From positions 12,338,001 to 12,402,000 of the forward strand of contig OZ024743.1 of assembly GCA_964016885.1 (NCBI GenBank): 64,000 bases of DNA, read 5' to 3'. Position numbers and translations under genes: made by a program. Within the stretch, counting starts at the first letter, position 1, and every line of letters begins with the position of its first letter. Below the pieces are notes generated by a model. The model was not told the DNA's origin. It did not search any database and saw only the letters and a program-made list of their open reading frames with translations. The DNA is from Eledone cirrhosa (Eukaryota). Below are positions 8,245 to 35,392 of this stretch, in pieces.

Positions 8245-8355
8245 AAATATATATATATATATACACACACATGCATATAAATCCCTTATATATATATACA
8301 TATATATATACACACACATATAACACACACACACATATATATACACACACATATA

Positions 8356-8470: not shown

Positions 8471-9906
8471 TTACCCACTCTACTACCCTAAGTATTGAGT
8501 ACTCTGGTGTGTTATGGTCCACCTGGTTCCTTACCACAATTCCTTCGTTATATATATATATATACACACACACATACTCACACTCACACAAGTAAATATG
8601 CATACACAAACATATTCAGGTATAATTTTATCACATACCAATACACACATATGTCCTTTACTATTTTGCTGATTTTACATGTGAGAAACATAGCCAAAAA
8701 GCTGATAGGTTAGAAATAGATGCCAATTCATTAATTGAAAATGTTATTTTAAATTTGTCTGCTTTCCAATATTTCAACAAGACAATTTCCAAAATGGCCA
8801 CATTCCTTTGACACAACAGCCACCTCATCTAGTTTGTTAGTAAATGAATAAGAATCTCATGTTAAATGAACTGATGTTTCCTGATGGTGTCCTTGTTGTT
8901 CTTGTTTTAGTTGTTTAATGAAAGGAGATTCAAATTCTCCTCAGTAAGAGAAAGCTGTAGGTAGGAAATATTTGAATTCAGCATTAAGAGCAATACAAGA
9001 ATAATATATCATCATACAGTATCCCCACCCCAACTTGTTAACAGCAATCATCTCTACTTAGGATAATCAGTAGATTAGGTTATAAAGGAAGTTAAAAATC
9101 GAAATTCCTTTAAGGAGAAGAAACTATAGCTGTGAAGGATTTGAATTCAACACCAAAAATTCTTTAATCCTTTAACTTTATCGCATGCTTGGATTAATAC
9201 AATTATTTGGTCTTTCAGGGTCTTAAGTGGAATCTATTCTTTTACAAGCAATTGGATCAGGTCTCCAATCTAGATGCCATTTGCTCATTCTCTCTTTACC
9301 CACCCCACTCACATCACTAAATTCATCCTTGAATTCCCACTACCTCGTTCAAAGCCAAGTGCACCCCAAAATACCCATAATATCGCCAAACATTCACTCA
9401 CTCACCATAAAACCACCCCACCCAATCTCTACAAACCTTGCTACCATTCCCTCACTTCTATCACTGCCCTCCTAGCTTGGTTGAGGACACAAATGCCCTA
9501 GTGTTGAAATGTGGTTGTGCTGATGCCACAATAAAATGCACTCAGCCCACACTATAAAATGGCAGTGCTGGTGCCATTATAAAATGCAGCACACTGTAAA
9601 GCAGTAGTGTTAGTACCATGATAAAAAGCACCCAATTTATCCTGGTAGGTGGAAGTGGGGGACGGTGATAAAATGTATACTGTACATACTGTGAAGTTGT
9701 TGGCATTAAGAAAGGCATCCAACCATAGAAACTATGTCAGAATGGAACGTATGAGTAAGATGCAGTCATCTAACCTGTCAGAACATGACAGGTTATCTAG
9801 AACATGATCAGTCATCAGAACATGACAGCTTATCTAACCAATGCAAGTATAAGACAGTGATTATGATGATAATGATTATTATTATCATCATTACTATTAT
9901 CATTAT

Positions 9907-10080
9907 TGAGGCGGTGAATTGGTAGCATCGGGCGCCATGCTTTCTAGCATAGTTACATCCCTTTACAGTCTGAGTTCAAATCCCGCCGAGGTTAACTTTG
10001 CCTTTTATCCTTACGGGGTCGATAAAATAAAGTACCAGTAATGTACTGGGTGATTGCTGGCCTTGTGCCAAAGTAGAAAC
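9907..10080 (+). mobile_element. Older tRNA-derived SINE family (other copies at about 16235-16445, 16560-16770, 57706-57887 on the minus strand)
   Basis: GAGTTCAAATCCCGCCGAGGTTAACTTTGCCTTT...GATAAAATAAAGTACCAG recurs many times in the window. Confidence 0.7.
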
Positions 10081-10386
10081 AATTATTATTATCATTACTG
10101 TTATCTTAATGCAGCACTGTTTCCTATTGTAGGAACTCAGGAGTCATGGATTCTTCCCTGTCTTTTGACCAGTCTTAGATACCCCATAAATGTGGTGGAT
10201 TCTGCTACTCTTCTGATTTATCATCATTAATAACTTTCAGTGTTAAGAATTTGATTCCATTGAATTTCTCTGTTCTAAGATGGGTGTATAAACCTATTTT
10301 ATCTAACCCTTACAACAAGAATATGAGAATTATTGTGCAGCTGGATCCAAGAATCCTCATTGTCAGCTTGCTTTCTTCTGACTATG

Positions 10387-10710
10387 AAGGTGCATGGCTT
10401 AGTAGTTAGGGCATCGGGCTTACAATAGTGAGGTAGTGAGTTCAATTCTCGAACCGGGCTTTGCATTGTCTTCTTGAACAAGACTCTTTATTTCACATTG
10501 CTTCAGTTCACTCAGATGCAGAAATTAGTTGTAACGTCACTGGTGCCAAGCTGTATCAGCTGTATCAGCCTTTCCCTCGGACAACATTGTTTGTGTGGAC
10601 AAGGGAGACTGGTATGCATGGGCGACTGCAGTTCTTCCACAAAGAGCCTTGTACCTCAGAGGGGAACTTTCTAGATGCAAATCCCATGGTCATTTGCGAC
10701 CAAGTGGGGG
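10387..10710 (+). mobile_element. tRNA-derived SINE (related minus-strand copy at 11760-13075 is split by the solo LTR)
   Basis: TGGCTTAGTAG A box, GTTCAATTC B box, CORE-like segment. Confidence 0.7.
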
Positions 10711-11842
10711 GGGGGAGTCTTTACCCTTCTTCTGACAATATTTCCAGGTGTCAGCCTCTGTTTTATGGTTACTTTCAAAGAAATTCTACCCAATGTGGCC
10801 TTTTCTCTTCCAAAGTGGACAATCATGCACATCAACCTCCTACAATGGATCTTAGGCTGATCCTTGTGCCCCTCTTTCAGAGATCCTATTGCATGTAAAT
10901 TCTTAGAATTTTCCTACATGCACATTGTCAGAAGTCAATGAGATGATATTCTTTGAATATGGCTAACCCATTGAAAAAGAAATGTTAATTATATAGTCCT
11001 TCTGCAACTAATAACATTTAGCTTCTGTTCTCCCATGATCCAATGATCTATGCCTATAAATAGTAGGCAGACAGGATTAAATAAAAAGTTGAATAATTTA
11101 AACATAGGCATAGTACAGTGTATGGTGGATGAAAGAATATGAATTGTCAACTCTTTTAACCAGGAAGTCTGCTTTCAATTTCACTATCACTTTACCAAAG
11201 TACAAAGTTTTGATGTCACTATGACATTTCCACATTTTAAACACAGTGATAATGTGTAATGGAAGAATATTTTCATTGATCTCTAAAGGTGTTTAATTCT
11301 GTTGTTTGTATTATTGTTGTTATTATTTCAACAATATTTGCTTTTTTTAATCGCATCTGGAATGTTTGTCTTTTCTTTTTCTCCATTTTAAATCCTTTAT
11401 ACAGTGACAAGATATTTCCTATCAATAACAATTTCAAGGATGTGTTATTCAATTTAGCATATTGATCTTTATGATATGATTCTGAAAGTTAACATATTCT
11501 TCATCATAAAGGGATAGAATTGATAATAAAAAGATCAAAAGTTCAGTTTGTTGAATAATATAATTTCTAAAACAGAGGGGAGTATTTCCTTCATAGTAAC
11601 AAAATCAACAGAATATCAGTTGTAATATCTTCTAGTATTTCTCCATTAACAGTCTGATTTCAAATCACATTAAGTTGGGTTGATAGAATAAATACCAATA
11701 TTAGATTGAGACTCAATGCAGCCTCCTTCCTCTGAACTTGTGACCTTGTACCAATGTAAAGGGTAAAGACCCCGCTTCGATCATGAATGACCATGGAATT
11801 TGTACCTATAAAATTCCCCTCCGAGGCACAAGTTCAAGCAAG

Positions 11843-12826
11843 TGTAGCGCTCTCTAGATAGGGAAGTAGTTAGAGTTACTTCCCGTCGAAAGTCTAGAAC
11901 CCTCTTTTGCAACTTCTGGAAAGAGGTTATAAATAGAGGCAACACAGCCAAGCTATATCTCTTGGCGCTTTCCTTCGAACAGATAACATCTTCCTAGGGA
12001 CCCCCATCAAAGGGCCTAGAGATGGACATGCATTCCGATCCTTTCTTACTGCTGTTTGCTAACATATAACTCCAAGTATGAACTAACATTTATGCACACA
12101 CCACTCCATCAATAAAACATGTTAATCATGGGTTTAGACTATACCTAAATATGTACAAGGATATTTGTGTTCCACAATTATAACGGAGTTACAATAAAAT
12201 GAAGACTTGTTTTCGATATGGTGTTTTGTAAATATATCTTATCTTTTTCTGTATAAAATTTAGTAGAATAATCGAGTATCGAAAAATCGGCGCACGAGTT
12301 CACGATAAACAAAATTCGACATGAGTGGCAGAGGGCTCAATAATTCAGATAAATCAGAGCTATAACTATCGTTAAAATACCAACACACATAGATTATTTC
12401 TAAAATCAACCATACGACCGAAAAATTACGATCAGGAAGATTCGGGTCACTCAGATAAAATATCAATAAATCAATAAATCATGTGAATGTAAAAAGCTTA
12501 CCCGGACCCACTAGAAAGATGGTAAATCTAGCTTCTTGGGTTTCTGTAAATCCTTAAACCGCCCACTATTAGCCCACATAAAAATATATAAGACTTCTAG
12601 AGAGCGGCGGACAGGAAATACTTTATCAACGAGCTTTGTCCAGACGAATAAAAAAGCCAAACCTAGCTGAAAACGCACATGGAATCCAGCAAGGGAGATA
12701 ACCTCTATATCCGCGAAAAATATTTGGGAATGTGGAAAATCACATATCGAATAAGAGTGCTCAGTAGTTAGATTCCGGTGATATTTACTCAAGTAAATAA
12801 TCCTGGGTCTGACAGCGAACACTAAA
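11843..12826 (+). mobile_element. Probable solo LTR (984 bp) inserted in a SINE
   Basis: Starts TGTAGCG, ends CACTAAA (decayed TG..CA); 4-bp TSD CAAG at 11839-11842 and 12827-12830; TATAAATAG at about 11929; AATAAA at about 12111 and 12193; CpG-richer than flanks. Confidence 0.65.
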
Positions 12827-13915
12827 CAAGGTTATTTGTGGAAGACCAGCAGTTGCCCATGCATACCAGTCTCCCCTCTCCATGCCACCGATGTTGTCCT
12901 AGGGAAAGGTTAAGGCTGATACAGCTTGGCACCAGTGACACTGCAACTCAGTTATACTGCTGAGTAAACTAGAACAATGTGAAATAAAGTGCCTTGCTCA
13001 AGAACACAACGCAAAATCTGGTCGGAGAATCAAACTCACAACCTCACGATTGTAAGCCCGACACTCTAAGCCAACTAAGAAACTAATATAATTGGTGGGA
13101 GACAGCCTAATCTGCTAGAAATAGCAGCAAAATTTCCTTTAAATTACATGTGGCTGTTTCTTTTTAAAAAGGAAAGACACATTGGATAATGGTATTGCTA
13201 TAGCATTGAATAAAATGTCTTATGACATTTGTTCCAGTTCTTTATATTCATCTTTTTGGAGTTGATAAAATAAAACACCAATCCGGGGTATTAAATTGGT
13301 GGAATTGTTAGAGTATAAGACAAAATTCTTTCTGGTATATTTTCCAGCTCATTATGTTCTGAGTGCAGAGGAAGAAGTATCAAACTTGTCTACATTTAGT
13401 TGACAAGATGGTGTTTTGAAAAAACTACCTAAATGATGGCAACAGAAACTAGTTTGTATTTTTCTAAGAAAATCCCATGACAAGCACTATGTGCTTATTA
13501 AAGGTTGTTTGTCAACCTGATCTTGTAATGAAGGGAAATACAAAAAAGATTAGATAATCATGGCTGAAATGCCTTTGATAATGTCTCACAAATCTAGGTT
13601 GGCTTGAGGCTAAACAACATCCAATGTGATTTCCATACTCAATGAGGGTGCCTGCTAGAAATAACAGCAAAATCTATGTTAAATTACACCTGACTCTTGA
13701 AAAGAGACAAATTGGAAAATGCTCCTAGTTTAAATACCTTTGATCATAGTTTTTTTTAATATCAGCTGAGTTAGGATTAAAAAAAACAACTAATATCATT
13801 TCCATTTTGTATTCATTAACATATGTATGTAAAAAGTAAACAGAAATAATAAAACAAATGGCGCAGTACATGGAAGAAATATATTAGTTTAATGCTTCAA
13901 ATAGCAGGAAGAGAG

Positions 13916-13951
13916 TCTTAACGTTTCAGACACTAGTCCTTCATCAGAAGA
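13916..13951 (-). ncRNA. Minimal (dimer-type) hammerhead motif
   Basis: TCTT-CTGATGA-aGGACtagtGTCT-GAAAC-GTT-AAGA; palindromic AACGTT replaces stem-loop III. Confidence 0.65.
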
Positions 13952-14176
13952 ACCCAGCTTCACATATCCTGGAGCTGGCCATGAAATTGCTATGTGGGTT
14001 TTCATTGAAGTTCTACATATATTTAAGTGCTTATTTCATATTTAAGTATTTATTTCACATTTTACTCAACAGCAATGAAATATCTTTATGAATAAAGAGA
14101 AAGATATAAAATTGTACTGTCAGTAGTCATGGTAGTTACCACCACCACCAATAACCCACACAACACATAATCTACC

Positions 14177-16020
14177 CAGTGCTTATCAACTTTTTAATAT
14201 TTAATATTGAATTTTGAGGCGATAAAATGTTCATACTATATACTTATATTTCAATTGAAAATAAAAGTAACATACTCTGCATAAAACAATATTACTTGAA
14301 ATTAACTCACATTCGTTGCACAAATAAAGATGATAAATTGAAATTATCTTTAATTTAAGTGATATCATTGAGCATAATTTGCAGCACTAAAACCTGATTC
14401 CACAGAATCATAAAAAGCAGATATTTATTTTGCCATAAATTTTGGTATCCACCACTGTTGAAATTACATTGGCATTCTTTATCCCATTTAAGTACTACAA
14501 GTTATTCCTGCCAAGTAACACTAGTCTTGGCAATATTTACATTAAAAAGATTCACCATGAAATTCAAAATGTCACTAAATTATTTTTTCCATATCTAATT
14601 TAAATAATTCTACATAATGATTACATTCCTTCCTCAAATTTTTCAATGAATAATAATAATGAAACATTTTTACAACCTATAAGTATTATACTGGCTCCTT
14701 GAAGCTGCAAATTAATTACATTAAACTTGAAATGCCTGCCAAATAAAAATGCATCATGCTTAATGTTTTTAATTGTTGACAGAATTCAACTTCATTTTCA
14801 TTAAAAAGAAAATTCTATGACGCTATCATATAATTTGAAAAAATGAGTCAAACATATCTTTTGAGAGCCAATGCACTTCTGTGTGTAGCACTAATCTAAC
14901 AAATTGCCCATTAACATCCTGATACAGCAGTTGAAATATCCTATTGTTTTTAGCATTGAATTTTATAGAGACTTTATTTCACATTGCTCCAGTTTACTCA
15001 GCTGTAGAAATGAGATGATAGGGACTGGGGTCCCTATCATTCCACTGCAAAGTGGACGTGTAGGCGCCATGGAAAAAAGCACCCAGCACTCACTGTAAAT
15101 GAGGTTGGTGTTAGGAAGGGCATCCAGCTGTAGAAATCAAGCCAGAATCAGTTCCCGTCCCACCCTTGCAAGCAGGGAAAAGCGGACGTAAAATGATGAT
15201 GATGATGATGATGATTATACTTAATGATTAATAAAGATTTGTACTCAAATGTTTTCCCTGCAAGATGTTGTCTATATACTACACAATACATGCATCAAAC
15301 ATTTGGGACTTCTTTCAAAAATGAAACAAAGCCATGATAATGACCTATCATTAATGGTACTCCATCAGTAACACATGTAGCAATATTTTTCATGGTATAT
15401 TATTTTTGGAAAAGTATGATTTCACAGAAGTAAACGTTAATAATCCTTTTGCATCAGTAAAAATATATAAAGTGAACAGCATTTCTTCTTTGCAATATGT
15501 TGTTTTGATCAAGGGACCATACATATATCAATAAAGCATTATTATCTGCACCGATAAACTCTTTCAACTGCATGGAAAATGGTGGGTTTTGAAGTATAGC
15601 TATACATTTATTTTCAAAGTTAACTGTCGCTTTGCCAATATGTTACTTTAGTGTGATAACATTTGTATAGCTTCATTCAGGTCCTGGTGCATTACTGTTG
15701 AGATTAATTTGTTGATACCATCAAAGATTTTCTAATGCTATGGCTTTTGCCACTTTTTGCGATTAACTGCGTTTAATCCATCTTAGTTCTTTGAACTTTC
15801 TTCCTTAAATGATATTATTCTAGATCCTTTATACAGATCTTCAAAATATTTTGAGTGTTTTATAACAAGATGTTCTTGCAACCATCTAGGTTTCATAGTT
15901 CCATTAGAAAATGTCATATGACACAATAAAACACATTAGAAATTGTTCATTCATAATAAATTTGATGCAGTCCATCTTTAGAAAAGCAGCTACAATCATA
16001 TTTCATTTTTTACGACATGG
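14177..16020 (-). mobile_element. hAT (Charlie/Buster-like) transposon relic, interrupted by a SINE
   Basis: CAGTGCTTATCAAC terminus at 14177; decayed FSNGTMKPRWLQEHL..KH (about 15870-15910) and VESGFSA (about 14385-14405). Confidence 0.65.
14970..15215 (+). mobile_element. 5'-truncated SINE with subfamily C tail
   Basis: Homologous to 23499-23828; (ATG)n tail. Confidence 0.8.
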
Positions 16021-17303
16021 TTTTAATATTTCTTGAGTGAATTATAATTCACTCAAGAAATATTTCTGTTTTGACTTTTGAATAATTATTCAAAAGTCAA
16101 AACAGAAATATACAAAATAATTCAAAATCTCACTGAGGACAATATGTTGCTCCAGCAATATGCAGTTAGCTTTTTGGAAGAAGCTAGATCTATATTTCAT
16201 GGTGTTACAAAATGTAATGATCCATTAATATTGATTTCTAATTTAGACACAAGGTCAACAAATTTGTGAGAACGACAAAGTTGATTAAATCAACTCCAGT
16301 ACATGGCTGGTATTATATTTTATCAGCCCTGGAAGGATGAAAAGTTGAAATTGGTAGGATTTGAATTCAAAATGTAAAGAATGAGAACAAATATTACAAT
16401 GGTATTCTATTTGATGCTCTACCATCTCTGCCGATTCACCATCCCATAATGGTCAATTAATATTAGAATCAAATCTAGTTCTACAGATCCCAAAATATGA
16501 AAACTGTATCATTAAAAAATTTAACAACCCTTAGCTAATTTGTAAACAATTAGTAATGGTTTCTGATTTATGCACAAGGCCAACAATTTTGAGGAAGGGG
16601 AAAGTTGATTAAATCAACCCAGTACATTACTGGTACTTTATTTTATTGACCCCATAAGGATGAAAGGCTAAGCTAACCTTGGCAGGATTTGAACTCAGAA
16701 CATAAAGGACCGTAACTCTAAGCCACAAAGCATATTGTCCGATGCTCTACTGATACTGCCAAGCCACCGTCCTTGTAAACAATTAATAATAAAAAGATGT
16801 ATATGTAGATATGGATTTGGATTCTAGGCATCAAGAACTAGAATGTTGAATCTACATTTACTAAACTACTAAACTGTTGAAATTAAAGAAGTTAGGTTAT
16901 TGGGCTCACAATTGCAATGCCATGGGTTTGATTCCTGAAGCAGGCAGTATGTTGTGTTCTTCAGCAACTTCACTTCATTGTGATACAATATATTCAACTA
17001 AAATGAGAACCACTATCAGCTGGGAGTTAAATTTCCCATATTGTTGCTTAATACCAATGAAACAAAACATGTTGAGGTTCTGTGAGGGTGAATGTATAAC
17101 GTAATTAATCTGACAGGTTTGGACAGAGTTTGTATTTACTTAATTTCACTGACAAGGCACCCAAGGCTATAACAAAAAGCACTTCCTCAAGATGCTACAC
17201 AGTGCAATTGAACCTAGGACTTCATAAATGAGAAGCAAACTTCATAACCGCCCAAGTATGCCACTATGTATATAAACACACACACACACACACACACATA
17301 TAT

Positions 17304-17591
17304 AATATCATAATGAGAGACACACACATACATGTGTATACATACGTACATGTGTATACATACATACATACATATGTATATATATATTTTCACAAGCATG
17401 TAAGTGTATGTGGTGTCGACCTTAACCAGTTTTGCTCTTCGTAATCATAGAGCAAAATTGGTTAAGGTCGACACCATACACACTCACATGCTTGTGAAAA
17501 TATATATACATACGTATGTATGTATACACATGTATTTATGTATACACATGTATGTATACAGATGTATGTGTGTGTTTCTCATTATGATATT
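17304..17591. repeat. Inverted repeat with about 135-bp arms including microsatellite
   Basis: ttttcacaagcatg...gtcgaccttaacc...gctct mirrored by agagc...ggttaaggtcgac...catgcttgtgaaaa. Confidence 0.85.
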
Positions 17592-18039
17592 GTCTCAAAC
17601 TCCCTTATGGTTGAGTTAACCCGAAAGTATAGTAACTGCTTGTTAGAACACTATAACCACTTTCAGTCCACCTTACTACCCACCTGTAACCTCTGTATCA
17701 TGTATTAATTTTTCCCTCTGCCTTTTGAGATATTTTTTCACTTGCTACAAAAGGATTCAGTTCCCTTTCTTGACCGATGTATCACATGGTAATTTCTCCT
17801 TCCACCTTTTGAGATTTTCTCACTTGCTACGAACGTGTCTGGAAGGCATTCTTTTCCTGACTAATTCCTTGAAACGCTGGTGTGCCTCACTTTGCACTTC
17901 TATAATGTACAATTGTTGCAAACTGACCAGCGAAACTGTACAGTCAGGACTTTGAAGAAAAAATAGGTATATATCTGTGTCTATTACTTCTTCTTATTTT
18001 ATAATTTGTTATATATATATTTGTTATATATATATATAT

Positions 18040-18960
18040 ATCAGCAGTGGTGGAGGGTGCTCTGAAAGTACAGTAACGGGATGGAAAAAAAACGGGATGG
18101 AAAAAGTTCAGAGAGCTTATACCACTATTCGCCGCTAAACGTTTCTCTCTAAAAATGAAAGGAAGGCTGTATGATGACTGCATACGAACAGCAATGTTAC
18201 ATGGCAGTGAGACTTGGGCATTGTGTGCAGAGGATATACGCAGACTGGAGAGGAACGAAGCTTGCATGCTCCGTTGGATGTGTAATAGTAATATACTTGT
18301 ACGGCAAAGCATAAATGAACTAAGTGAGAAATTAGGAATAAGAGGGATCAGATGCTGTTTACTCGAGAGAAGACTACGTTGGTATGGTCACATGATGCGC
18401 ATGAAAGACAACAGCTGCATAAAAAAGTGCAGGGCGATCAAAATAGATGGTAGCCACGGTGTAGGCAGACCCAGAAAAACCTGGGACGACTTAATAAATT
18501 CCGACCTCACACACTTACACCTCTCCAAGACAATGTGACTGGGCCGAGATCTTTGGCGCTACGCAGTAATACAGAAGATCCGCCTACAGTCAGTAGGCAC
18601 CTCTTAACAAAAATACACCCCCATCCCACTACCCCCAACCCATCCACACCACCCCTTTCGATGTAAAGTTATGTTGGTACCACAACATCCAGTCCTAAAT
18701 AAATGAGGTCGTGTAGGTGTCACGACAAAAAAACACACAGTCCACGCTGTAATGTGGCCGTGCAGGTAACACGGTAAAAACCTCCGAGTCCACACTGTAA
18801 ACGTGGTTGGTGTTAAGAAGGGCATCCAGCCGTAGAAAACCCGCCAGACAGTCCTATACGAGCAAGACAACCAATCTAATCTTGCCTCAAGTGGGAAAAT
18901 TCCCGTCCAAACCCATGCTAGCGTGGAAGACGGACGTTAAACGATGATGATGATGATGAT

Positions 18961-18961
<1 letters not shown>
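18040..18961 (+). mobile_element. RTE LINE subfamily B, 3' fragment
   Basis: ORF 18155-18538 (RRLRWYGH...GRPRKTW), B-type 3' UTR, (ATG)n tail, (TA)n on both flanks. Confidence 0.9.
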
Positions 18962-18994
<33 letters not shown>

Positions 18995-19092
18995 CACACA
19001 CACATACATTGTTGCTCTGGACAAATGTCCATAGAGCTTTTCTATTGAAAAGCACAAATAACATACATAATTGATATGTTTTGATACCTTAA

Positions 19093-19164
<72 letters not shown>

Positions 19165-19261
19165 GTAGGTCCCGGGTTGAGTCGGGGATAACCACAGTAA
19201 GTAAGGTACTCAATACATGGCAGAGTAAAATTTTTTTATATATTTTTTATTTATTTATTTT

Positions 19262-19375
19262 ATAGAAGGAGCTTCTACAGGACTAGTACTGTTTCATTCA
19301 GATGAAATCTTCAGGAAGCTTCCTGAAGATTTCATCTGAATGAAACAGTACTAGTCCTGTAGAAGCTCCTTCTAT
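19262..19375. repeat. Perfect 114-bp palindrome
   Basis: Centre AG|CT at 19318/19319, no spacer and no mismatch seen. Confidence 0.95.
19317..19367 (+). ncRNA. Type I hammerhead ribozyme motif, intact core (mirror copy at 19270-19320 on the minus strand)
   Basis: AGCTTC-CTGAAGA-tTTCAtcTGAAt-GAAA-CAGtactagtcCTG-TA-GAAGCT: stems I, II and III pair; GUA cleavage site. Confidence 0.8.
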
Positions 19376-19389
19376 TATATATATAGCCC

Positions 19390-21984
19390 TGAAACAGAGG
19401 CCAACCTGGAGAAGAAAGATCTGGAAGCTGAAAGTCCCCTCAACCAGTAACAGATTTAAAGATATTTTACTCAACGCCTACGACAGTAAAGAAGAACAGA
19501 TAGAGACATTTAACGTAGAAGAGAACTGGGAGTTCCTAAAAAATAACTTACTAGAGGCGACGGATGAGGTTTGTGGCTGGAGTAAGACCTCAAGCAGGAG
19601 GAGAGTGACTTGGTGGTGGAACAATAAGGTAGATGAAGCAGTCAAGGCCAAGAGACAGGCATGGAAAGAATGGAAGAACGGGGGGAGCAGGGTACATTAC
19701 ATAGAGACCAAGAGGGAAGCTAGGCGACAAGTATACTTAGCTAGGAGGGAAGCAGAGGATAGAAAATTCAAGCATGTTTTACAACGTGAGGACCAGAAAC
19801 AGGAGGTATTCAAGATTGCGAGGCAGTGTGTCAGAGATAGTTGTGATGTCATTGGAGAGAAGTGTATCCGGAATGATAAAGGTGAGCTTGCCCTCACAAG
19901 TGCTGAGAAGAAAGATGCATGGAAGAGTCATTATGATAGATTACTAAATGAGGAGAATGCATGGGAAGAAGAGACCCTACCCCACGTAGACCCTATAGAG
20001 GGACCAGCAGTACAAGTCAGCGGCAGCGTAGTAAGTAAGGCAATCAGAGATATGAAGATAGGGAAGGCAACCGGTCCATCGGGTATAGCTGCCGAGATGC
20101 TGAAGGCATCTGGGTCTGTAGGTCACACTATAACCACACGTATCGTTAACCAGGTAATACTAGAGGGGGCCATACCAAAAGATTGGTGCAGTAGCATCAT
20201 TGTCAACTGCTACAAAGGTAAAGGCGATGCACTAGATAGAGGAAACTATAGAGGTATAAAGTTGATGGACCAGGTCATGAAAGTAACAGAAAGAGTTATA
20301 GCACAGCTGATTAGGGACCGGGTGAATATAGACGAGATGCAATTTGGGTTTGTACCAGGGAAAGGCACCACTGATGCCCTCTTCCTTGTGAGGCAATTAC
20401 AGGAAAAGTACCTAGCTAAAAGTAAGCCACTCTACTTGGCATTTGTCGACCTTGAGAAAGCCTTTGACAGAGTTCCACGTGCAGTAATCTGGTGGGCTCT
20501 TAGAAAACTAGGAGTAGATGAATGGCTTGTGAAAGCGGTACAAGCCATGTATAGGGGGAGCAGTCAGCAAAGTTAGGATTGGCAATGAGTATAGCGAGGA
20601 ATTTAGCGTACAGGTTGGGGTCCACCAGGGCTCTGTTCTTAGCCCTCTCCTGTTCATCATAGTCCTGCAGGCAATAACGGAGGAGTTTAAGACCGGATGC
20701 CCATGGGAACTCCTGTATGCTGATGACCTCGCACTCATAGCTGAATCTATGGTAGAACTAGAGAATAAATTCCAAACCTGGAAGCAGGGACTAGAGAGAA
20801 AGGGCCTCAAAGTCAACATGACAAAGACTAAGGTCCTTATAAGTAGACGAGAAAACAGAACCCAGATCCCCTCAGGGAAATGGCCTTGCTCAGTATGTAG
20901 GAAAGGTGTAGGTAGGAACTCCATTCTCTGCCCCAAATGCAAACAATGGGTACACAAGAGATGTAGCGGGATCTCAGGAAGCTTAATTAAGAATGTAGGA
21001 TTCACATGCAGCAGCTGTGCTGAAACAGCAAGCAAACAGCCACAGGAAACAAGTACCACCAATCTCTGGGAGGGCCCTGTAGAAACAGTAGACAGCTTCT
21101 GCTACCTAGGTGACCGAATTAGCAACGGAGGTGGGTGCTCAGAAAGTACAATAACTAGGGTAAGAACGGGATGGAAGAAGTTTAGGGAACTACTACCACT
21201 GCTAGCTGCAAAAGGCTTCTCCCTCAGAATGAAAGGCAGACTGTATGATGCGTGTATCCAAACAGCGATGTTGCATGGTAGTGAGACCTGGGCGCTGAAG
21301 GTGGAAGACTTACGTAGATTAGAGAGAAACGAAGCCTGCATGCTCCGATGGATGTGTAACAGTAATATACGTGAACGACAAAGCATAAAGGAATTGAGAG
21401 AGAGACTGAGCATAAGAGGAATCAAATGCTGCGTGTAGGAGAGGCGGTTACGCTGGTATGGACATGTGATGCGTATGAAGGATGACAGCTGCATAAAAAG
21501 GTGCAGAGCACTAGAAGTTGATGGAAACCGCGGAGTGGGGAGACCCAAGATGACTTGGGATGAGGTGATAAAAGCCGACCTTACCCAACTACACCTCTCA
21601 AAGTCAATGACACACGACCGTGACTTCTGGCGTCACGCAGTAATACAGGGTACCCGACCTCCCATGGGTACATGCTGAAGCATATAAACAATATGCCCCC
21701 ACACCCCCCCACCGCAAGGTGGTCGTGGAGGTGCCACGGCAAAAAAGCACCCAGCCCACACTGTAAAGTGGACGTGTAGGCGCCACGAAAAAGCACCCAG
21801 CACTCACTGTAAATGAGGTTGGTGTTAGGAAGGGCATCCAGCTGTAGAAATTAAGCCAGATCAGTTCCTGTATGAGCAAGGCATGGTCAGCCGACCAGAC
21901 ACTGCCCACAACAGGACAACCCGTCTAACCCATGCTAGCATGGAAGAACGGACGTAAAACGGTGATGATGATGATGATGATGAT
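19390..21984 (+). mobile_element. RTE LINE subfamily A, about 2.6 kb, 5'-truncated, young
   Basis: ORFs 19605-20576, 20749-21438 and 21466-21678 join after one frameshift (about 20555) and one stop (21436); full RT with YADD; (ATG)n tail. Confidence 0.95.
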
Positions 21985-21995
21985 ATATATATGTA

Positions 21996-22415
21996 TAGTG
22001 GTTAGAGCATTGGGCTGGCAATCGAAAGTTTGTGAGTTCAATTCTCGGACCAGGTGGTGTGTTGTTTCCTTGAGCAAGACACTTTATTTCACATTGTTCC
22101 AGTTTACTCAGCTGTAGAAATGAGATGATAGGACTGGGGTCCCTATCATTCCACTGCAAAGTGGTCATGGAGGTGCCACGGCAAAAAAGCACCCAGCCCA
22201 TACTGTAAAGTGGACGTGTAGGTGCCACAGAAAAAAAGCACCCAGCTCTCACTGTAAATGAGGTTGGTGTTAGGAAGGGCATCCAGCTGTAGAAATCAAG
22301 CTAGAATCAGTTCCCGTATGAGCAAGACAAAGTCAGCCGACCGCACACTGCCCACAGCAGAACCCGTCTAACCCATGCTAGCGTGGAAGAACGGACGTAA
22401 AACGGCGATGATGAT
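21996..22415 (+). mobile_element. tRNA-derived SINE with RTE subfamily A 3' end
   Basis: Partial A box, B box GTTCAATTC, CORE-like CCTTGAGCAAGACACTTTA; body and tail match the subfamily A 3' UTR. Confidence 0.85.
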
Positions 22416-23498
22416 AGATATATATATGCATGTATAAATATATATATATATATACACATATATATGTATGTATGTATAAATATATATAAAAGCGGACATA
22501 AAAATGATGATGATGATGATGATATACAAACATACAAATGTGTGTGTGTGTGAATAATGCGATGAAGATATCTTTATAATGGAATTGAACATCTGTATTC
22601 AGTCATTCTACATATTTTGTAATGCACACATGCTCTCATATATATATACCTATATAATGCAAGCCATATGTATATATATATAATATATACGTTTGTCATT
22701 CTCTGAATTGACATGAAATCTTTTTATTATTAGGCTAATAAATATACATGGGGGTTCTGTGCTGAATCCAATTTTATAATTGGTTCACACCATCTGGTGC
22801 TTCAAGTAGATCCTGCTAAATTCAAAAACCTAGTATTTAGAATTTCCTACCAATTAAAGATGAAAGCTGGACAGGAAAAAGTATTGGTAGTGGTGGTGGT
22901 GATATCGGTGGTGATGGCTTAGGGATATTTGTTTATTTTTGTGAGAGGGGGGGGGTTACTTTAGTTCAATTTTCATGTTTCTTTTTGTGTGTTTTTTTTT
23001 CATGTTTCTTTTTGTGTGTTTTTTAATGTATTTTTCCAAAATAGGAGAAAAAAAAAATGGTTTCAAATGGAGAAAAATATTTTTTCAAAAATCATTAATT
23101 CAAATTGTTTGTGTGATAATAACTTTGGAAACAGCCAGAAGAGGAAATTCTAACTAAAAATAAACTGAAGGAGATGCCAGCTGTTTTAACAGAATGCGAA
23201 GAACTTTGCCATCAACTACAATTGCTGCTGTTGCAATAAAATAATGACAATAGTTTTTTTATTGTTGTTTTTTTTTATCATAGAATAGTATAGATTAAAG
23301 ACATGATTGAGTGGTTAAGAAATTTACTTTATAACCATATGGTTTCAAGTTCATTCTCAACTGGGTTAAGTATCTTCTACATTTTAGTCACAGTGTGAAT
23401 GAAAACTGCGAAAAGCCGTTGTTTGAAATCAAACAGTTCTAGTCATATAGATGTCATTTTTATATGAAATAAATATGTACCTTCTCTAGTAATGTATT

Positions 23499-23828
23499 CA
23501 TCATCATTTTATGTCCACTTTTCCTTGCTTGCAAGGGTGGGACGGGAACTGATTCTGGCTTGATTTCTACAGCTGGATGCCCTTCCTAACACCAACCTCA
23601 TTTACAGTGAGTACTGGGTGCTTTTTGCTGTGGCACCTCCACGACCACTTTGCAGTGGAATGATAGGGACTCCAGTCCCTATCATCTCATTTCTACAACT
23701 GAGTAAACTGGAGCAATGTGAAATAAAGTGTCTTGCTCAAGGAAACAACACATCACCCGGTGTGAGAATTGAACTCACAACCTTTCGATTGCAAGCCCAA
23801 TGCTCTAACCACTAAACCATGTGCCTCC
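23499..23828 (-). mobile_element. tRNA-derived SINE with RTE subfamily C tail
   Basis: A/B boxes, CORE-like segment, tail CCCGTCCCACCCTTGCAAGC...(ATG)n. Confidence 0.85.
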
Positions 23829-23894
23829 ATCAGTATTGAGTACCTTAATTAACTGTGGCTTCCTTCTATTCCTCTTTGGAAAACCATTCTTCAT

Positions 23895-24044
<150 letters not shown>

Positions 24045-24348
24045 GTGAAGAATAAGTAAGCATAATGGTTTTTTGCAACAATTTATTTAGATATTTTCCA
24101 TTACAAATGCTTCAACGGATTTGACAGCTATGCCATGTATCAATCTGGCCTCTTCATATAAAATGTGTGTGTGTGTGTGTCTAATCATCGTTATTACCAA
24201 TTTTTTTTGTCTGGCATAAAGTGAATGTGTCCTTACAGACAGTCCTCCTAGACCTGTCTTGCTTAAATACATTCCAGTTTTGGCATGGTTTTTACAGCTG
24301 GATGTCCTTCCTAATGTCAACCAATATATATATATTTACATATATATA

Positions 24349-27286
24349 TCATCATCATCATCATCAGCAACGTTTAACGTCCGTGTTCTACGCTTGCATG
24401 GGTTTGGACGGGGGTAGTCCCACTTGAGGCAAGAGTGATTTTCTTGCTCGCATAGGACTGTCTGGCAGGTTTTCTACAGTTGGATGCCCTTCCTAACACC
24501 AACCACATTTACAGTGTGGGTCTGGGAGGTTTTTACCGTGTTGCCTACACGGCCACATTACAGCGTGGACTGTGTGTTTTTTTGTCGTGATACCTACACG
24601 ATCTCATTTGTTTCGGCCTGGATGGCGCGGCACCAACATAACTTTACATAGAACGGGGTGGTGTGGATGGGGTGGGGGTGGTGGTGGTGGGACGGGGTGT
24701 ATTTTGTTAGAGATGCCTACTGGCAAGGCGGGTCTTCTCTATTACTGAGTACCGCCAAAGGTCTCGGTCCAGTGACATTGTCTTGGTGAGGTGTAAGTGT
24801 GTGAGGTCGGAGTTTATCAGCTCGTCCCAGGTTTTTCTGGGTCTGCCTATTCCGTGGCTACCGTCTATCTTTATTGCCCTGCACTTTGTTATACAGCTAT
24901 CATCCTTCATGCGCATCACGTGACCATACCAACGTAGCCTTCTCTCGAGTAAACAACATCTGATCCTTCTTATTTCTAATTTTTTCCTTAGTTCGTTTAT
25001 GCTTTGTCGTTCACGTATATTACTATTACACATCCAGCGGAGCATGCAAGCTTCGTTTCTCTCTAGTCTGCGTATATCCTCTGCACACAATGCCCAGGTC
25101 TCACTGCCATGCAACATTGCTGTTCGTATGCAGGCATCGTACAGCCTGCCTTTCATTTTTAGGGAGAACCCTTTAGCGGCTAATAGTGGTATAAGCTCTC
25201 TGAACTTTTTCCACCCAGTTCTGACTCTAGCTACTGTACTTTCAGAGCACCCTCCCCCACTGCTGATTTTGTCACCCAGGTAACGGAAGCTATCCACTAT
25301 TTCTATAGAACCCTCTGCGCAGTTGAAAGAGCTAGTATTTTGTGGGCACTTGCTGCTACTTATATCCCCAGAACACCGGCCACATGTAAAATCTATGTTC
25401 TTAGTTAGCTTACCTGTGATCCCACTACATCTTTTATGCACCCAAACTTTGCATTTGGGACACAAAATGGAATTTCTACCTACGCCTTTCCTACACTCTG
25501 CGCATGGCCACTTCCCGGAGGGGACCGCCGCCTTATTTTCTTTCTTACAAACTAGAACTTTAGTCTTAGCTAGGTTAATTTTAAGGCCTTTTGATTCTAG
25601 GCCGTGCTTCCATGTTTGGAATTTCTTCTCTAGCTCGGCCATTGATTCAGCTATGAGCGTTAGATCATCTGCGTATAGGAGTTCCCATGGGCAGCCGGTC
25701 TTGAACTCCACTGTTATAGCCTGAAGGGCAATAATAAATAGTAGGGGGCTAAGAACAGAGCCCTGATGAACACCAACTTTTACACTAAACTCTTCACTAT
25801 ATTCGTTGTTAATTCTAACCTGGCTAACTGTTTCTTTATACATGGCTTGTATAGCTCTCACAAGCCATTCATCAACACCTAGTTTTCTAAGAGCCTACCA
25901 GATAATGGAACGGGGGACTCTGTCGAAGGCCTTCTCCAAGTCGACGAAAGCTAAGTATAGGGGTTTACTTTTAGCTAGGTACTTCTCCTGTAGTTGTCGT
26001 ACAATGAAAAGAGCGTCTGTGGTACTTTTTCCTGACACAAACCCGAACTGCATTTCATCTAGATCAATTCGCTCTCTGATTAGTTGCGCTATAACTTTTT
26101 CCGTGACCTTCATGACCTGGTCGATTAATTTAATGCCTCTATAGTTACTCCTATCTAGGGCATCTCCTTTACCCTTATAACAGTTAACGATAATGCTGCT
26201 GCGCCAGTCCTTCGGAACAACCCCATTCTGTATGACTTGGTTGACTATCCGGGTGACCATGGTGTGTCCCACCGTACCAGATGCCTTCAGCATCTTGGCA
26301 ACTATTTCCGAAGGCCCAGCCGCCTTGCCTGTCTTCATATCTTTGATTGCCTTACTTATTATACTACCCTCGACTAACACTGCTGGTCCCTCTATTGGGT
26401 CGATGTGGGGGAGACTGTCTTTCTCCCATTTATTCTCCTCATTTAGTAGCCTTTCATAGTGACACTTCCAAGCTACCTTCTTATCGGCGTCGGTGATGGC
26501 AAGTATGCCGTCATCGTTAAGTACACACTTCTCCCCGACAATATCACTGTTTTCCTTGACACATTGCCTAGCAATCCTGAACACCTCACGTTTTTGGTCC
26601 TCGCGTTGTAGAACATGCTTGAACTTTCTTTCCTCTGCTTCCCTTCTTGCGAAGTACACTTGTCTCCTAGCTTCCCTCCTGGCCACTTGATAGTCTTCTC
26701 TGCTTCCCCCATCCCGCCATACTTTCCAAGCCTGCTTTTTGGCCTTAATTGACCCCTCCACCTTACTGTTCCACCACCATGTTACTCTCCTCCTGCCTAC
26801 AGGCCTGCTCCAGCCACAGACTTCGTCTGCCACCGTCAGCAGGTTTGCTTTCAGGAATTCCCACTGTTCCTCTACCTTGTACGTCTCTAATTGCTCTTCC
26901 TCACTGTCGAAAGCATCAAGTAATATGCTTTGGAATTTATTTTTGGCTTTGGGGTCCTTTAGCTTCCATATTTTTCTCCTGAGGATAGTCCTCTTCTGTT
27001 GTCTAGTACGTCTCGTCCTGACTATTAGGTCGCTAATTATCAGTCTATGTTGGGAAGTGCATTCTTCATGGGGGAGGGATTTAGTGTTTACGACAGTCAC
27101 TTTGTCACGTCTTCTGGTAAGGATATAATCTACCTGGCTAGTATGTTCCCCTGATCTGTAGGTGATCAAGTGATTGTCTCGTTTTTTGAAGTTAGTGTTG
27201 CAGATAGTTAGGTTATTTGCGTCGCAGAATTCCAGGATTCTGGAGCCTTCCTCATTTCTAGTACCAAACCCATAGCCTCCATGGAT
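24349..27286 (-). mobile_element. RTE LINE subfamily B, about 2.9 kb, truncated within the endonuclease
   Basis: ORFs 27169-25895 and 25861-24707 are in the same frame, separated by one TAG (TGG in other copies); (CAT)n tail at 24349; (TA)n on both flanks. Confidence 0.95.
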
Positions 27287-27613
27287 ATATATATATAGTT
27301 ATGTAATAAACAACATATTTCATTTACCAGTGGTTTCTTGAAAGCAAACAAATTTTGCTTTCAGTCATCAGAATGAAAAAATCCTGGTGTATTATATTTG
27401 TATATATATATATATACAAATATAAATTAACAAGAATCGTATTTCAGCTATTGGAAATTAGCGAAAAACAACTTCCGAGATGTGTGGCAAGTGCTCCATA
27501 GAAGCTAGTGAACTAGAGCTACAACATAAGTTAAAAGGCCAAACACACTGAGATGACGGTTAATATATATATAAATAAATATACACGGGTATGTATGATT
27601 GTGTATAGAAGAT

Positions 27614-28378
27614 TATATTAATAAAAGGAATTCCAACTTTGTCTGATTTACTCGTTTTATTTACAATCCTTTAAAATTATAATGATATTATAATGAAATA
27701 GTATGGTAGAATATTAAATGTTAAGTGTTAATTGAACAAGCACTTGCATGCTTTCGCAATCTTCAGGTTCATATTCAGTGGTGTCAGTCAAGTTTGCAAT
27801 TTTCAACTCTAATGAGATGGGTAAATTCTGTGCCTTATATACAGTAAAAAGGGGCTCCAGAATGCTAAGTTTTGCAAACTGTATTTCGACCAATCGGCGT
27901 GTAGTTTCACTAGATTACTAAAGCTGATTGGTTTAGGCGTCACGGTTGGTTGAGCATGTCTAATGACTTCTATTTGACCCTATCCAAAGCATCAATTGCT
28001 ATTTTTAGAAATGATGAAAATAGAAGTCTTTAGACATGCTCAACCAACTGTGATGCCTAAACCAATCAGCTTTAGTAATCTAGTGAAACTACACACCGAT
28101 TGGTCGAAATACAGTTTGCAAAACTTAGCATTCTGGAGCCCCTTTTACTGTATATAAGGCACAGAATTTACCCATCTCATTAGAGTTGAAAATTGCAAAC
28201 TTGACTGACACCACTGAATATGAACCTGAAGATTGCGAAAGCATGCAAGTGCTTGTTCAATTAACACTTAACATTTAATATTCTACCATACTATTTCATT
28301 ATAATATCATTATAATTTTAAAGGATTGTAAATAAAACGAGTAAATCAGACAAAGTTGGAATTCCTTTTATTAATATA
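27614..28378. repeat. Fold-back inverted repeat, about 361-bp arms and 42-bp spacer (Penelope pLTR-like)
   Basis: Arms 27614-27975 and 28018-28378 differ at about 5 positions; each carries a hammerhead motif. Confidence 0.9.
28221..28259 (+). ncRNA. Minimal type I hammerhead motif (mirror copy at 27733-27771 on the minus strand)
   Basis: TGAAC-CTGAAGA-ttgc-GAAA-GCAtgcaagTGC-TT-GTTCA. Confidence 0.72.
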
Positions 28379-28437
28379 TATATATATAGCTCAAGGAAAG
28401 CATCTTATTAATTTCACGCTTTATATAGGATATATCG

Positions 28438-28932
28438 TCATCATCATCATCATTTTACATCCACTTTTCCCTGCTTTCAAGGGTGGGACGGGAATTGATT
28501 CTGGCTTGATTTCTACAGCTGGATGCCCTTCCTAACACCAACCTCATTTACAGTGAGTACTGGGTGCTTTTTTTCCTGTGGCACCTCCATGACCACTTTG
28601 CAGTGGAATGATATGGACCCCAGTCCCTATCATCTCATTTCTACAGCTGAGTAAACTGGAGCAATGTGAAATAAAGTGTCTTGCTCAAGGAATCAACACA
28701 TCACCCGGTCTGAGAATTGAATATGTGGCCGTGTAGGTAACACGGTAAAAATCTCCCAGACCCACACTGTAAACGTGGTTGGTGTTAGGAAGGGCATCCA
28801 GCCATAGAAAACCCGTCAGACAGTCCTATACGAGCAAGACAACAAATCTTGCCTCAAGTGGGAAAACTCCCGTCCAAACCCATGCAAGCGTGGAAGATGG
28901 ACGATGATGATGATGATGATGATGATGATGAT
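28438..28932. mobile_element. Minus-strand SINE (28438-28722) fused head-to-head to a plus-strand RTE-B 3' UTR (28723-28932)
   Basis: (CAT)n at the left end, (ATG)n at the right end, junction GAGAATTGAA|TATGTGGCC. Confidence 0.8.
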
Positions 28933-30225
28933 ATATATAACAGTGGTGGTTCTGGCTCATCAATGTTACTCAGGCTTACAAAATTTAGTAAACATACAAT
29001 TTAGTGTACCACATTACATAAAGCATTGGATATATTGAATATCTTAGCCACATTACCTGCCCTATATTTTAGTGACCTCCCACTGCCATATATTTTTTTA
29101 GGAATTTTATTATTGCATACACCTTTTTTTTTATGTTTTCATTACTGTATACTTTTGATCTGTATTTGTAATTAAGTGAAACATTAACCTCAGAAATGTT
29201 TTAACCTTTATTTAATATTGATTATGAAAAATATCAATGAGGATATTGTCATAGATTTTCTATAGGAACTGAATGACATTTCAACTTCTAAGAATTGTAT
29301 ACAAAAAAATATATATATATTTTCATCAAAATAATCATAATCTACACTTTTGAAAATGTATCTCTGCAAAATATGCATTATGAAGCAAACTTAGGTGGAA
29401 GACATTAGTTTTTTTTGTTTTGTTTTGTTTTTTTTCCAATAGAAAATATAATTTTATTTATAATAATGTCAACTATATTTTACAAACTTTTACACGACTT
29501 TATTGTGTTGTATCAGATGAAATAATGGTATTTAACTAATGTATTGGGACCCACCCACAGCCCCAGCGGACAGAATGGAGAAGGCGTTAGTTATGTCACC
29601 TATAGTTTATTTACATTTAACAACCAAACATATGGTCAGTTTTAACTATAACTATTTAGTGTGGCAGAGGGCTAATACAAAAGACAAGATTTTCAATGTA
29701 TTTCTGGGAGAAAAGATGACATTAGATAATGTAGTCATAGATATTTTATATCTGAAGAAAGAATAGACGAGATGGCCAAGACTGGAATTTTTTTATCATA
29801 GATCTACTCAATCAGGGCTGACTTGGGTGAAAACAACAACCATCCTACAGATTCTAGAACTGATATTTCAGATATACGTTCTCCTATGTATTGAATGATT
29901 TGCTCCACATACAATGTTAACCTTCTTTCATTTTTAAAACACATAAAATATTTATTTTGTTTGAATTTCCTCTTGTGACGGCTATTTTGTTTTATCCATT
30001 CTTTCACAATAGCTCCTTTGAAAGTTATACAATTCAGAGAATAAAGAAACTTCCAATCAGCACCATTCTCATTGTTTTCTTGAATATTTTTGTGGATTCC
30101 TTATTCATTCCAATGAGTTATGGCATTGGATAAATCCTTATTTTAGCAACTAAGCATGTCGAGTAGTTACAGATGTTTAGAACTAAAATATTATTTGGTT
30201 CTGAAATAAATAAACAGTTACTTAC

Positions 30226-30374
30226 TTGTCTAATGAAGTACTCAGTCTATACAAATAACAAGAGACATCTTCTGCTGTTGTGACAACAAACTTGTTGCAG
30301 ATATCTGCACACAGCAGTGGTTGACAATGTTTAGTGAAATTGTTCTTGCAGTGGCCATTGTTACAAGAGAACAT
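30226..30374 (-). CDS. TEP1: TEP1-like exon J (MFSCNNGHCKNNFTKHCQPLLCADICNKFVVTTAEDVSCYLYRLSTSLD), degenerate WD40
   Basis: ctaaag acceptor, gtaagt donor, 149 nt, phase 0-2; bridges exons I and K in frame. Confidence 0.85.
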
Positions 30375-30413
30375 CTTTAGAAGACAGAAAGCAAAGTATA
30401 CAAGAATTTAAAA

Positions 30414-35379: not shown

Positions 35380-35392
35380 TTAAATAACTTAC

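What the first reader, a model, noticed from the sequence alone, without database searches (positions are those of the whole stretch)
27614..28378. 765-bp fold-back element: divergent promoter-like arms each followed by a hammerhead
Two arms of about 361 bp with about 5 differences surround a 42-bp spacer. Reading outward, each arm has CCAAT/ATTGG boxes (about 28061, 28099), TATATAAG (about 28151), then a minimal hammerhead about 70 nt later (28221-28259) and an AT-rich end at (TA)n. This matches an inverted pLTR pair of a Penelope-like element with no RT. It could act as a bidirectional promoter making self-cleaving RNAs, and forms a 360-bp hairpin in the host pre-mRNA.
Basis: partly seen in the sequence, partly recalled or inferred. 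Interest (0 to 1): 0.75.

Follow-up and report, generated by a model that had tools for sequence, protein, structure and literature searches.

The report
Broken head-to-head Penelope retroelement stub
This DNA hairpin in a gene's intron is two mirror-image ends of a jumping gene present in thousands of copies in this genome, and its self-cutting RNA motif carries the same core mutation in both arms and is likely dead, so it is an ordinary insertion rather than a new two-way promoter device.

Summary
The inverted repeat is real: arms of 362/361 bp, 5 differences, 42-bp loop, junction also found in short-read contigs. Each arm is the 3' pseudo-LTR of a Penelope-like retroelement (RT plus C-terminal GIY-YIG; at least 6,710 copies). 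The loop is ordinary family sequence, the left arm carries a missed ~40-bp tail, and both ends lie in (TA)n. Head-to-head pairs are the family norm (25 of 25 close neighbours among 100 listed matches), and this layout is published. Family 5' ends pile up 33 bp after the TATA box (68 of 109 arms), which supports a real promoter in the family. The family hammerhead uses the second GAAA and a palindromic helix III. In this copy both arms carry A13>C and a broken palindrome, so self-cleavage is unlikely; inside host pre-mRNA the arms would also pair. The copy lies in a ~25-kb intron of a TEP1-like WD40 gene. Transcription and editing were not tested. Side results: 5 of 32 pairs have arms from different subfamilies, which favours two templates over self-priming; four rare changes are mirrored in both arms here. 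This scan reported the same layout before on other DNA of this genome.

The parts
27564..27573 (.). (TA)n target tract, left end
   Evidence: sequence
27574..27613 (-).
   Evidence: same tail follows the arm in many other copies
27614..27975 (-). Left arm: 3' pLTR of the PLE family (main copy)
   Evidence: about 96% identical to other copies
27733..27771 (-). Type I minimal hammerhead site, left arm, mutated (A13>C at 27746; helix III change at 27741)
   Evidence: mirror of 28221-28259
27834..27841 (-). TATATAAG box, left arm; predicted start near 27808
27976..28017 (-). 42-bp loop = upstream family sequence continuing the left arm (5-bp deletion against other copies)
28018..28023 (.). Head-to-head junction with 6-nt microhomology (AAATAG fits both the left copy's continuation and the start of the right arm)
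   Evidence: junction bridged by short-read contigs
28018..28378 (+). Right arm: inverted, more 5'-truncated pLTR copy without tail
28062..28103 (+). CCAAT (28062) and ATTGG (28099) boxes; the upstream CGTGACG motif has lost both CpGs in this arm
   Evidence: conserved across two subfamilies
28151..28187 (+). TATATAAG box and, 33 bp on, the predicted initiator (family CAGTT, here GAGTT); family 5' ends pile up here
28221..28259 (+). Type I minimal hammerhead site, right arm. Family fold: helix I 28221-25/28255-59, core 28226-32, helix II 28234-36/28241-43 with GAAA loop, G12-A15.1 28245-48, palindromic helix III 28247-54, predicted cut after 28254. Here A13>C (28246) and A>G (28251)
28375..28388 (.). 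(TA)n target tract, right end
4926..30236 (-). Approximate host intron (~25 kb) of a TEP1-like WD40 gene; flanking exons near 30237-30377 and 4800-4925
   Evidence: tblastn with P0001: aa 153-209 and 206-246; Pfam TEP1_C and TEP1_2nd above cut-off on P0001

Best explanation
The element is a protein-less, 5'-truncated insertion of a multicopy endonuclease-bearing Penelope-like retroelement: two copies of the 3' pLTR joined head to head in a (TA)n tract inside an intron, with a mutated and likely inactive hammerhead in both arms. Inferred mechanism: the element's GIY-YIG nuclease cut the (TA)n target, and reverse transcription was primed from both cut ends at the two internal start sites (one with the tail, one without). 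Both cDNAs ran past the hammerhead and promoter, stopped about 40 nt apart, and annealed at the 6-nt AAATAG/CTATTT microhomology. In the family, the CCAAT-TATA-initiator block is likely the element's real promoter and the hammerhead a dimer-type minimal ribozyme. In this copy the most likely present-day effect is passive: a long double-stranded hairpin in the host pre-mRNA.
For: SHOWN: (a) The arm is the 3' end of an element with RT (YLDD; RVT_1 E 2.9e-6, just under the Pfam cut-off) and C-terminal GIY-YIG (E 3.3e-6, above cut-off) in one 775-aa open frame (L087/L088; also L031). (b) 6,710 exact matches to the family hammerhead 20-mer, control 0. (c) Among the first 100 listed matches, 25 neighbouring pairs lie within 10 kb and all 25 are head to head; 885 palindromic sites match a junction pattern centred on the initiator. 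(d) One tailed and one untailed arm in 18 of 20 scorable pairs (32 pairs, 12 unscorable; binomial p about 2e-4), as in the window. (e) 68 of 109 arms in 76 loci start at 28180-28190; the TATA-to-A spacing of 33 holds in two subfamilies with different TATA sequences. (f) The family fold has helices I and II as its minimum-energy structure (pair probabilities 0.97 and 0.96) and a perfect 8-nt palindrome; in the window copy the helix II probability falls to 0.04. The A at 28246 and 28251 also dominates in contigs of four other organisms. (g) In 5 of 32 pairs (L057, L065, L074, L080, L086) the arms differ at two or more subfamily-diagnostic sites at 28215-28219, which self-copying cannot give. LITERATURE: inverted 5'-truncated copy, one-sided 30-40 bp tail and (TA)n bias (PMC8557442, passages); two adjacent internal RT start sites defining the tail, both strands cut and extended, predicted dimer, HHR cleavage not needed in vitro (PMC11167929, parts 1-2 of 4); palindromic helix III and dual min-HHRs 100-700 bp apart on opposite strands (PMC4209133, parts 1-2 of 4); core mutations abolish or strongly reduce cleavage (PMC2837043, passage).
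Against: For this copy the junction cannot tell two-primer annealing from fold-back: both give the same sequence, and its arms are concordant at the subfamily sites. Most sampled pairs (27 of 32) do not show multi-site discordance. 5' ends are BLAST ends against one natural copy and are blurred by a few bases; no RNA data confirm the start site. The family fold has U-U at 10.1/11.1 instead of the usual G-C, so even the family ribozyme may be weak. No cleavage assay was run, and the specific effect of A13>C rests on general core-mutation knowledge. The C1 sample was ascertained by an exact 20-mer covering 28231-28250, so conservation there is partly built in (the 28 top BLAST hits, not chosen that way, also all have A at 28246). 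No target-site duplication or empty site was found.
Confidence: 0.85

Rival explanations
1. Same PLE origin, but the second arm arose by self-priming: the first cDNA (or an antisense template) folded back on the 6-nt microhomology across the 42-nt loop and copied itself.
For: Short loop and microhomology; the arms share four rare changes and one variant otherwise seen in the other subfamily; self-priming is the published interpretation of head-to-head palindromes (PMC3846280).
Against: It needs a second step to stop the copied arm exactly at the untailed end (18 of 20 pairs), and it cannot explain the 5 of 32 pairs with subfamily-discordant arms.
Confidence: 0.3
2. The four mirrored rare changes (28183, 28208, 28246, 28251) arose after insertion and were copied between arms by gene conversion or hairpin mismatch repair. 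The alternative is a rare donor RNA that already carried them, which would mean an RNA with a dead hammerhead was retrotransposed.
For: No other place in the assembly shares two of three tested changes (6, 39 and 8 exact matches; only the window's two arms are common to the lists). The outer 235 bp have 0 differences and the inner 126 bp all 5 (p about 0.005 before allowing for a boundary chosen afterwards and for CpG sites; Poisson p 0.004 at the sample rate).
Against: Shared rare changes also occur in other pairs (18 in 6,087 aligned sites; 11 of 32 pairs have at least one; L121 has 4 with arms over 5 kb apart), which fits donor-specific variants. Three of the five differences are at CpG sites, which are richer in the inner part (4 against 2). 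The donor could be lost or unassembled.
Confidence: 0.5
3. One reading: an active bidirectional promoter that makes self-cleaving RNAs in both directions, possibly through an alternative fold that uses the first GAAA with a 4-bp helix III and no helix II.
For: Both arms keep CCAAT, ATTGG and TATA. The G at 28251 does complete a 4-bp helix III in that register (pair probability 0.54). Helix-II-less 'minizymes' with weak activity exist (recalled, no call).
Against: That register has a C-A mismatch and positive energy in the family and no room for helix II; it lacks the G10.1-C11.1 pair and palindromic helix III described for PLE min-HHRs. The haplotype has left no progeny. The initiator -1 base is changed, and CpG decay suggests methylation.
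Confidence: 0.04
4. MITE or DNA-transposon terminal inverted repeats, or an assembly artefact.
For: Long inverted arms around a short centre; palindromes are prone to misassembly.
Against: The arms are fixed 3' ends of RT-EN elements with variable 5' ends; the two ends differ (tail); the arms differ at 5 sites; short-read contigs bridge the junction.
Confidence: 0.02

Closest known systems
Complex insertions of canonical EN+ Penelope-like elements (inverted 5'-truncated pLTR plus one-sided tail; Pen2/Pen2a_Av, PMC3846280; review in PMC8557442)
   Same: Head-to-head inverted pLTRs, tail on one arm, TATA and initiator in the pLTR, suggested bidirectional promoter, microhomology at the 5' junction, (TA)n target.
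   Different: No ORF sequence is left in this copy. In this family most arms begin at one position just after the TATA box (68 of 109), and some pairs mix subfamilies, which the published self-priming reading does not explain.
Neptune/Nematis-type C-terminal EN+ PLEs
   Same: [quoted passage not shown]
   Different: The clade is assigned from motifs only; no tree was built. The two near-intact copies (L087/L088) have their N-terminal region in a separate overlapping frame.
Minimal type I hammerheads of metazoan PLEs (Cervera and de la Pena 2014, PMC4209133)
   Same: 5-bp helix I, CUGAnGA and GAAA core, small palindromic helix III, dual motifs a few hundred bp apart on opposite strands.
   Different: The family has a short 3-bp helix II with U-U at 10.1/11.1 instead of G-C; the window copy has lost A13 and the palindrome.
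PAc Poseidon element of Anolis (PMC11167929)
   Same: Two internal RT start sites giving tailed and untailed ends; AT-rich target.
   Different: Different clade (no CX2-5CxxC linker in Poseidon); the parts read do not show head-to-head products.

Membership tests
EN+ Penelope-like element (parent family) | RT followed by C-terminal GIY-YIG endonuclease in one ORF | tested here: met
   775-aa frame upstream of the same pLTR in L087/L088: RVT_1 E 2.9e-6 (27.6 bits, cut-off 29.6) and GIY-YIG E 3.3e-6. Absent from the window copy itself (truncated).
EN+ Penelope-like element (parent family) | pLTRs in direct or inverted arrangement, with frequent 5' truncation | tested here: met
   Inverted pairs dominate; a partial tandem pLTR precedes the ORF in L031.
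EN+ Penelope-like element (parent family) | 30-40 bp tail on one end | tested here: met
   Left arm tail about 27574-27613; 18 of 20 scorable pairs are one-sided.
EN+ Penelope-like element (parent family) | Hammerhead motif in the pLTR | tested here: met
   Family fold; mutated in the window copy.
Neptune/Nematis clades | CX2-5CxxC linker and CCHH motif; DKG and GxKF motifs | tested here: met
   Read by eye in the L088 translation against the definitions in PMC8557442.
Neptune/Nematis clades | Placement in an RT phylogeny | not tested
   No labelled reference PLE proteins were on hand.
Naiad/Chlamys or Hydra clades | N-terminal EN with DKA (Naiad), or DKT and no CCHH (Hydra) | tested here: not met
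   EN is C-terminal; DKG and the CxxC/His motif are present.
Active minimal type I hammerhead (window copy) | Intact core CUGAnGA ... G12 A13 A14 A15.1 after helix II | tested here: not met
   A13 is C in both arms.
Active minimal type I hammerhead (window copy) | Palindromic helix III for dimer formation | tested here: not met
   Family AAGUACUU is a palindrome; window AAGUGCUU is not a perfect one, although G-U pairs leave a duplex energy of -5.6 against -6.6 kcal/mol.
Active minimal type I hammerhead (family) | G10.1-C11.1 pair closing helix II | tested here: not met
   U-U at that position in 135 of 135 and 134 of 135 arms.
Active minimal type I hammerhead (family) | Self-cleavage | not testable with these tools
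   Needs an in vitro assay.
Non-LTR retrozyme | Head-to-tail tandem monomers, each with an HHR | tested here: not met
   0 of 25 close neighbours are tandem; definition from 10.64898/2026.07.22.740005 (part 1 of 5).
MITE / DNA transposon | Fixed symmetric TIRs and uniform length | tested here: not met
   Asymmetric ends, variable centres, continuity with the RT-EN ORF.
Bidirectional promoter | Transcription in both directions | not testable with these tools
   No RNA run holding the stretch was listed.

The most novel reading that the evidence does not exclude
The family is a genome-scale record of how Penelope-like elements make their inverted ends: two separately primed cDNAs, one tailed and one untailed, sometimes from different subfamily templates, run to the RNA's 5' end and join head to head, rather than one strand folding back. 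This copy would add that an RNA with a dead hammerhead can still be retrotransposed in vivo, or else that the arms repair each other afterwards. The mechanism was not found in the paper searches, but other notes of this scan reach it for other families.
Probability: 0.45. Interest if true: 0.5.

Novelty: new member of a known kind. Interest (0 to 1): 0.22.

Why it matters
As a locus it matters little: it is one of thousands of dead copies, and its layout, tail, promoter motifs and paired hammerheads are all published features of Penelope-like elements. What has value lies in the family. The pile-up of 5' ends predicts the transcription start site, and the one-tail rule with mixed-subfamily arms gives a testable two-primer model for an unexplained step of PLE integration. 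The ~360-bp intronic hairpin is a candidate substrate for RNA editing, untested here.

Tried and rejected
Rfam at E<=5 over 26000-30000 gave no hammerhead; the mir-8517 hit (34 bits, gathering score 70) only reflects the hairpin centre. The first-GAAA register was rejected for the family (C-A mismatch, +3.1 kcal/mol, no helix II). ADAR-type fossil editing as the cause of the mirrored changes was rejected: only 1 of 4 is A>G. A young subfamily carrying the window haplotype was not found. No empty pre-insertion site was found. No RNA holder was listed for the stretch, which says nothing on expression. Contigs could not span the whole element. Four ORF pieces of L031 gave only the GIY-YIG hit. 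113 of 115 candidate non-repeat ORFs were scanned (the other two); this missed the flanking exons, which were found by tblastn. Look-ups of earlier findings by 'near' and by sequence returned nothing. Paper searches for octopus or cephalopod PLE hammerheads, for gene conversion between PLE arms and for head-to-head palindromes at start sites gave listings with no paper on this family. Supplements were not opened; those of PMC8557442 and PMC4209133 may list cephalopod PLE families or this hammerhead variant. Six duplicate locus views (L040, L049, L054, L058, L063, L066) were dropped before counting.

Full report
Observation. The inverted repeat is in the sequence as described: arms 27614-27975 and 28018-28378, 5 differences, a 42-bp loop, and CCAAT, ATTGG, TATATAAG and CUGAAGA mirrored on both strands. 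All five differences lie in the inner 126 bp. Short-read contigs bridge the unique junction (X1 record 5, 0 differences; X2 record 13, 2 differences; one sample, possibly the assembly's own), so the junction is not a long-read fold-back artefact. No contig spans the whole element.

What the arm is. The window lies at G000:C4:12338001-12402000 in a 3.0-Gb animal genome, probably an octopod: the host gene's one listed homologue is named as Octopus bimaculoides, 82% identical over one exon. The arm had 2,357 first-look candidates, of which 40 were scored, at 95-97% identity, and a family 20-mer has 6,710 exact matches (control 0). [quoted passage not shown] GxKF, DKG, a CX4CxxC linker and a CxxC/His motif fit the Neptune/Nematis type as defined in PMC8557442 (passages); no tree was built. 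The arm is therefore a PLE 3' pLTR. The 'spacer' is family sequence continuing the left arm, and the right arm is a shorter inverted copy joined at a 6-nt microhomology. The left arm has a ~40-bp tail outside the reported coordinates, the right arm has none, and both end in (TA)n.

How ordinary is the layout. I examined all of the first 100 listed matches (start of contig C1; 76 loci after dropping 6 duplicate views). Twenty-five neighbouring matches lie within 10 kb and all 25 are head to head; 15 of these are 88-134 bp apart. A junction pattern centred on the initiator has 885 palindromic sites genome-wide, and the same short form appears as joints in the read contigs. Of 32 pairs with two hammerhead-bearing arms, 21 have both ends at 28180-28195 and 6 keep the full promoter block on both arms, like the window copy. 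Of 20 pairs scorable for the tail, 18 have it on one arm only, 1 on neither, and 1 was called on both (its printed end is (TA)n, so probably a false call); 12 could not be scored. Inverted 5'-truncated copies, one-sided tails and (TA)n bias are published (PMC8557442). So are head-to-head palindromes, TATA/initiator motifs and a suggested bidirectional promoter (PMC3846280, passages), and dual minimal hammerheads 100-700 bp apart on opposite strands (PMC4209133).

Promoter. 68 of 109 arms begin at 28180-28190, 15 begin further 3' and 26 further 5'. The peak is 33 bp after the TATA box, at an initiator-like CAGTT. The spacing of 33 holds in 12 of 15 other aligned copies from two subfamilies with different TATA sequences (the other 3 have a changed box or initiator), and CCAAT and ATTGG are kept. 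I infer that this is the element's transcription start; PLE start sites are known to lie in the pLTR. Both window arms extend upstream of it, so they were copied from the 3' pLTR of a longer transcript. Both carry C28183G just before the predicted start, and the right arm shows CpG decay. Whether this copy is transcribed is untested.

Hammerhead. The family sequence folds with helix I (5 bp) and helix II (3 bp, GAAA loop) as its minimum-energy structure, uses the second GAAA as G12-A15.1, and has a perfect 8-nt palindrome as helix III. This matches PLE min-HHRs except for U-U at 10.1/11.1. Both window arms have C at A13 (28246; A in 135 of 135 other arms) and G in the palindrome (28251; 1 of 135), and helix II probability falls from 0.96 to 0.04. 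Only 4 other places in the genome match the C variant, none with the G. Contigs of four other organisms carry the family letters. Core changes abolish or strongly reduce cleavage (PMC2837043, passage; numbering and the role of A13 recalled). The remaining first GAAA leaves no helix II. I put the chance that this copy self-cleaves usefully at about 5%.

Host. WD40 exons lie on the minus strand on both sides. tblastn with P0001 places consecutive exons at about 30237-30377 and 4800-4925, so the element is in one intron of about 25 kb, about 1.9 kb past the upstream exon. P0001 passes the Pfam cut-offs for TEP1_C and TEP1_2nd, along with several general WD40 models. The host pre-mRNA would contain both arms, predicted to pair almost fully (-621 kcal/mol, 732 of 765 nt paired); this would also hide the sense hammerhead, since its complement is made first. 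Editing and small RNAs were not tested.

Mechanism. In vitro, a Poseidon PLE cuts and extends both target strands and starts RT at two internal sites that define the tail; hammerhead cleavage is not required (PMC11167929). The one-tail rule fits priming from both cut ends. In 5 of 32 pairs the arms differ at two or more subfamily sites at 28215-28219, which self-copying cannot produce; in the other 27 they do not. For the window copy the junction fits either two-primer annealing or fold-back; I favour the first by about two to one. The four rare changes shared by both arms (Poisson p 0.02 at the sample rate) and the perfect outer 235 bp suggest arm-to-arm conversion, and no sibling haplotype exists in the assembly. 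However, shared rare changes occur in 11 of 32 other pairs and in L121, so a rare donor is about as likely.

Earlier notes and verdict. This scan has noted the same layout, start-site pile-up, tail asymmetry and mirrored changes for other stretches of this genome; I tested these points on this family myself. The finding is a real but ordinary truncated PLE insertion with a likely dead ribozyme. Novelty: new member of a known kind. Interest 0.22.

Noticed in passing
window 4800-59994 (minus), L123, L124: Exons of a TEP1-like WD40 beta-propeller gene (near 59887-59994, 57977-58111, 56857-57102, 55408-55623, 53540-53665, 35390-35491, 34115-34265, 33257-33370, 30237-30377, 4800-4925, continuing in L123/L124). 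Four WD40 exons lie upstream of the start of P0001, so that record is probably partial.
   Followed up: partly
L087/L088 (G000:C1:21871800-21880950): Two near-full-length copies of the family, head to head 8.4 kb apart, 98.6% identical over 3.9 kb, one tailed and one untailed. Each has a 775-aa RT-EN frame and a separate overlapping upstream frame of about 290 aa.
   Followed up: partly
L031 5740-5921: A partial upstream pLTR with tail and a (TA)n tract lies directly before the ORF region, next to an inverted 3' piece: the full tandem-plus-inverted PLE layout.
   Followed up: partly
family positions 28215-28219: A short hypervariable stretch just before hammerhead helix I separates subfamilies while the neighbouring sequence is nearly invariant.
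   Followed up: partly
L121 (G000:C13:29290900-29298500), L122 (G000:C12:28478900-28479850): Other head-to-head pairs with rare changes mirrored in both arms (4 in L121; 1 in a perfect 110-bp palindrome in L122).
   Followed up: partly
window 5623-6574, 18077-18538, 19344-21438, 24707-27298, 38446-39111, 40892-43707, 45575-49977, 62521-62967: Many fragments of LINE-like elements with AP-endonuclease-like, RT and PHD-like regions (RTE-like by recall); the longest open frame is 809 aa (RVT_1 E 7e-30).
   Followed up: no
window 37161-38346 (+): Two adjacent open frames (124 and 253 aa) without a Pfam hit, resembling a decayed DNA-transposon transposase by eye.
   Followed up: no
window 24378-24558, 28500-28555, 28723-28903: Dispersed SINE-like repeats next to (CAT)n tracts; 24378-24558 and 28723-28903 are 90% complementary and could also pair in the same intron.
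   Followed up: no
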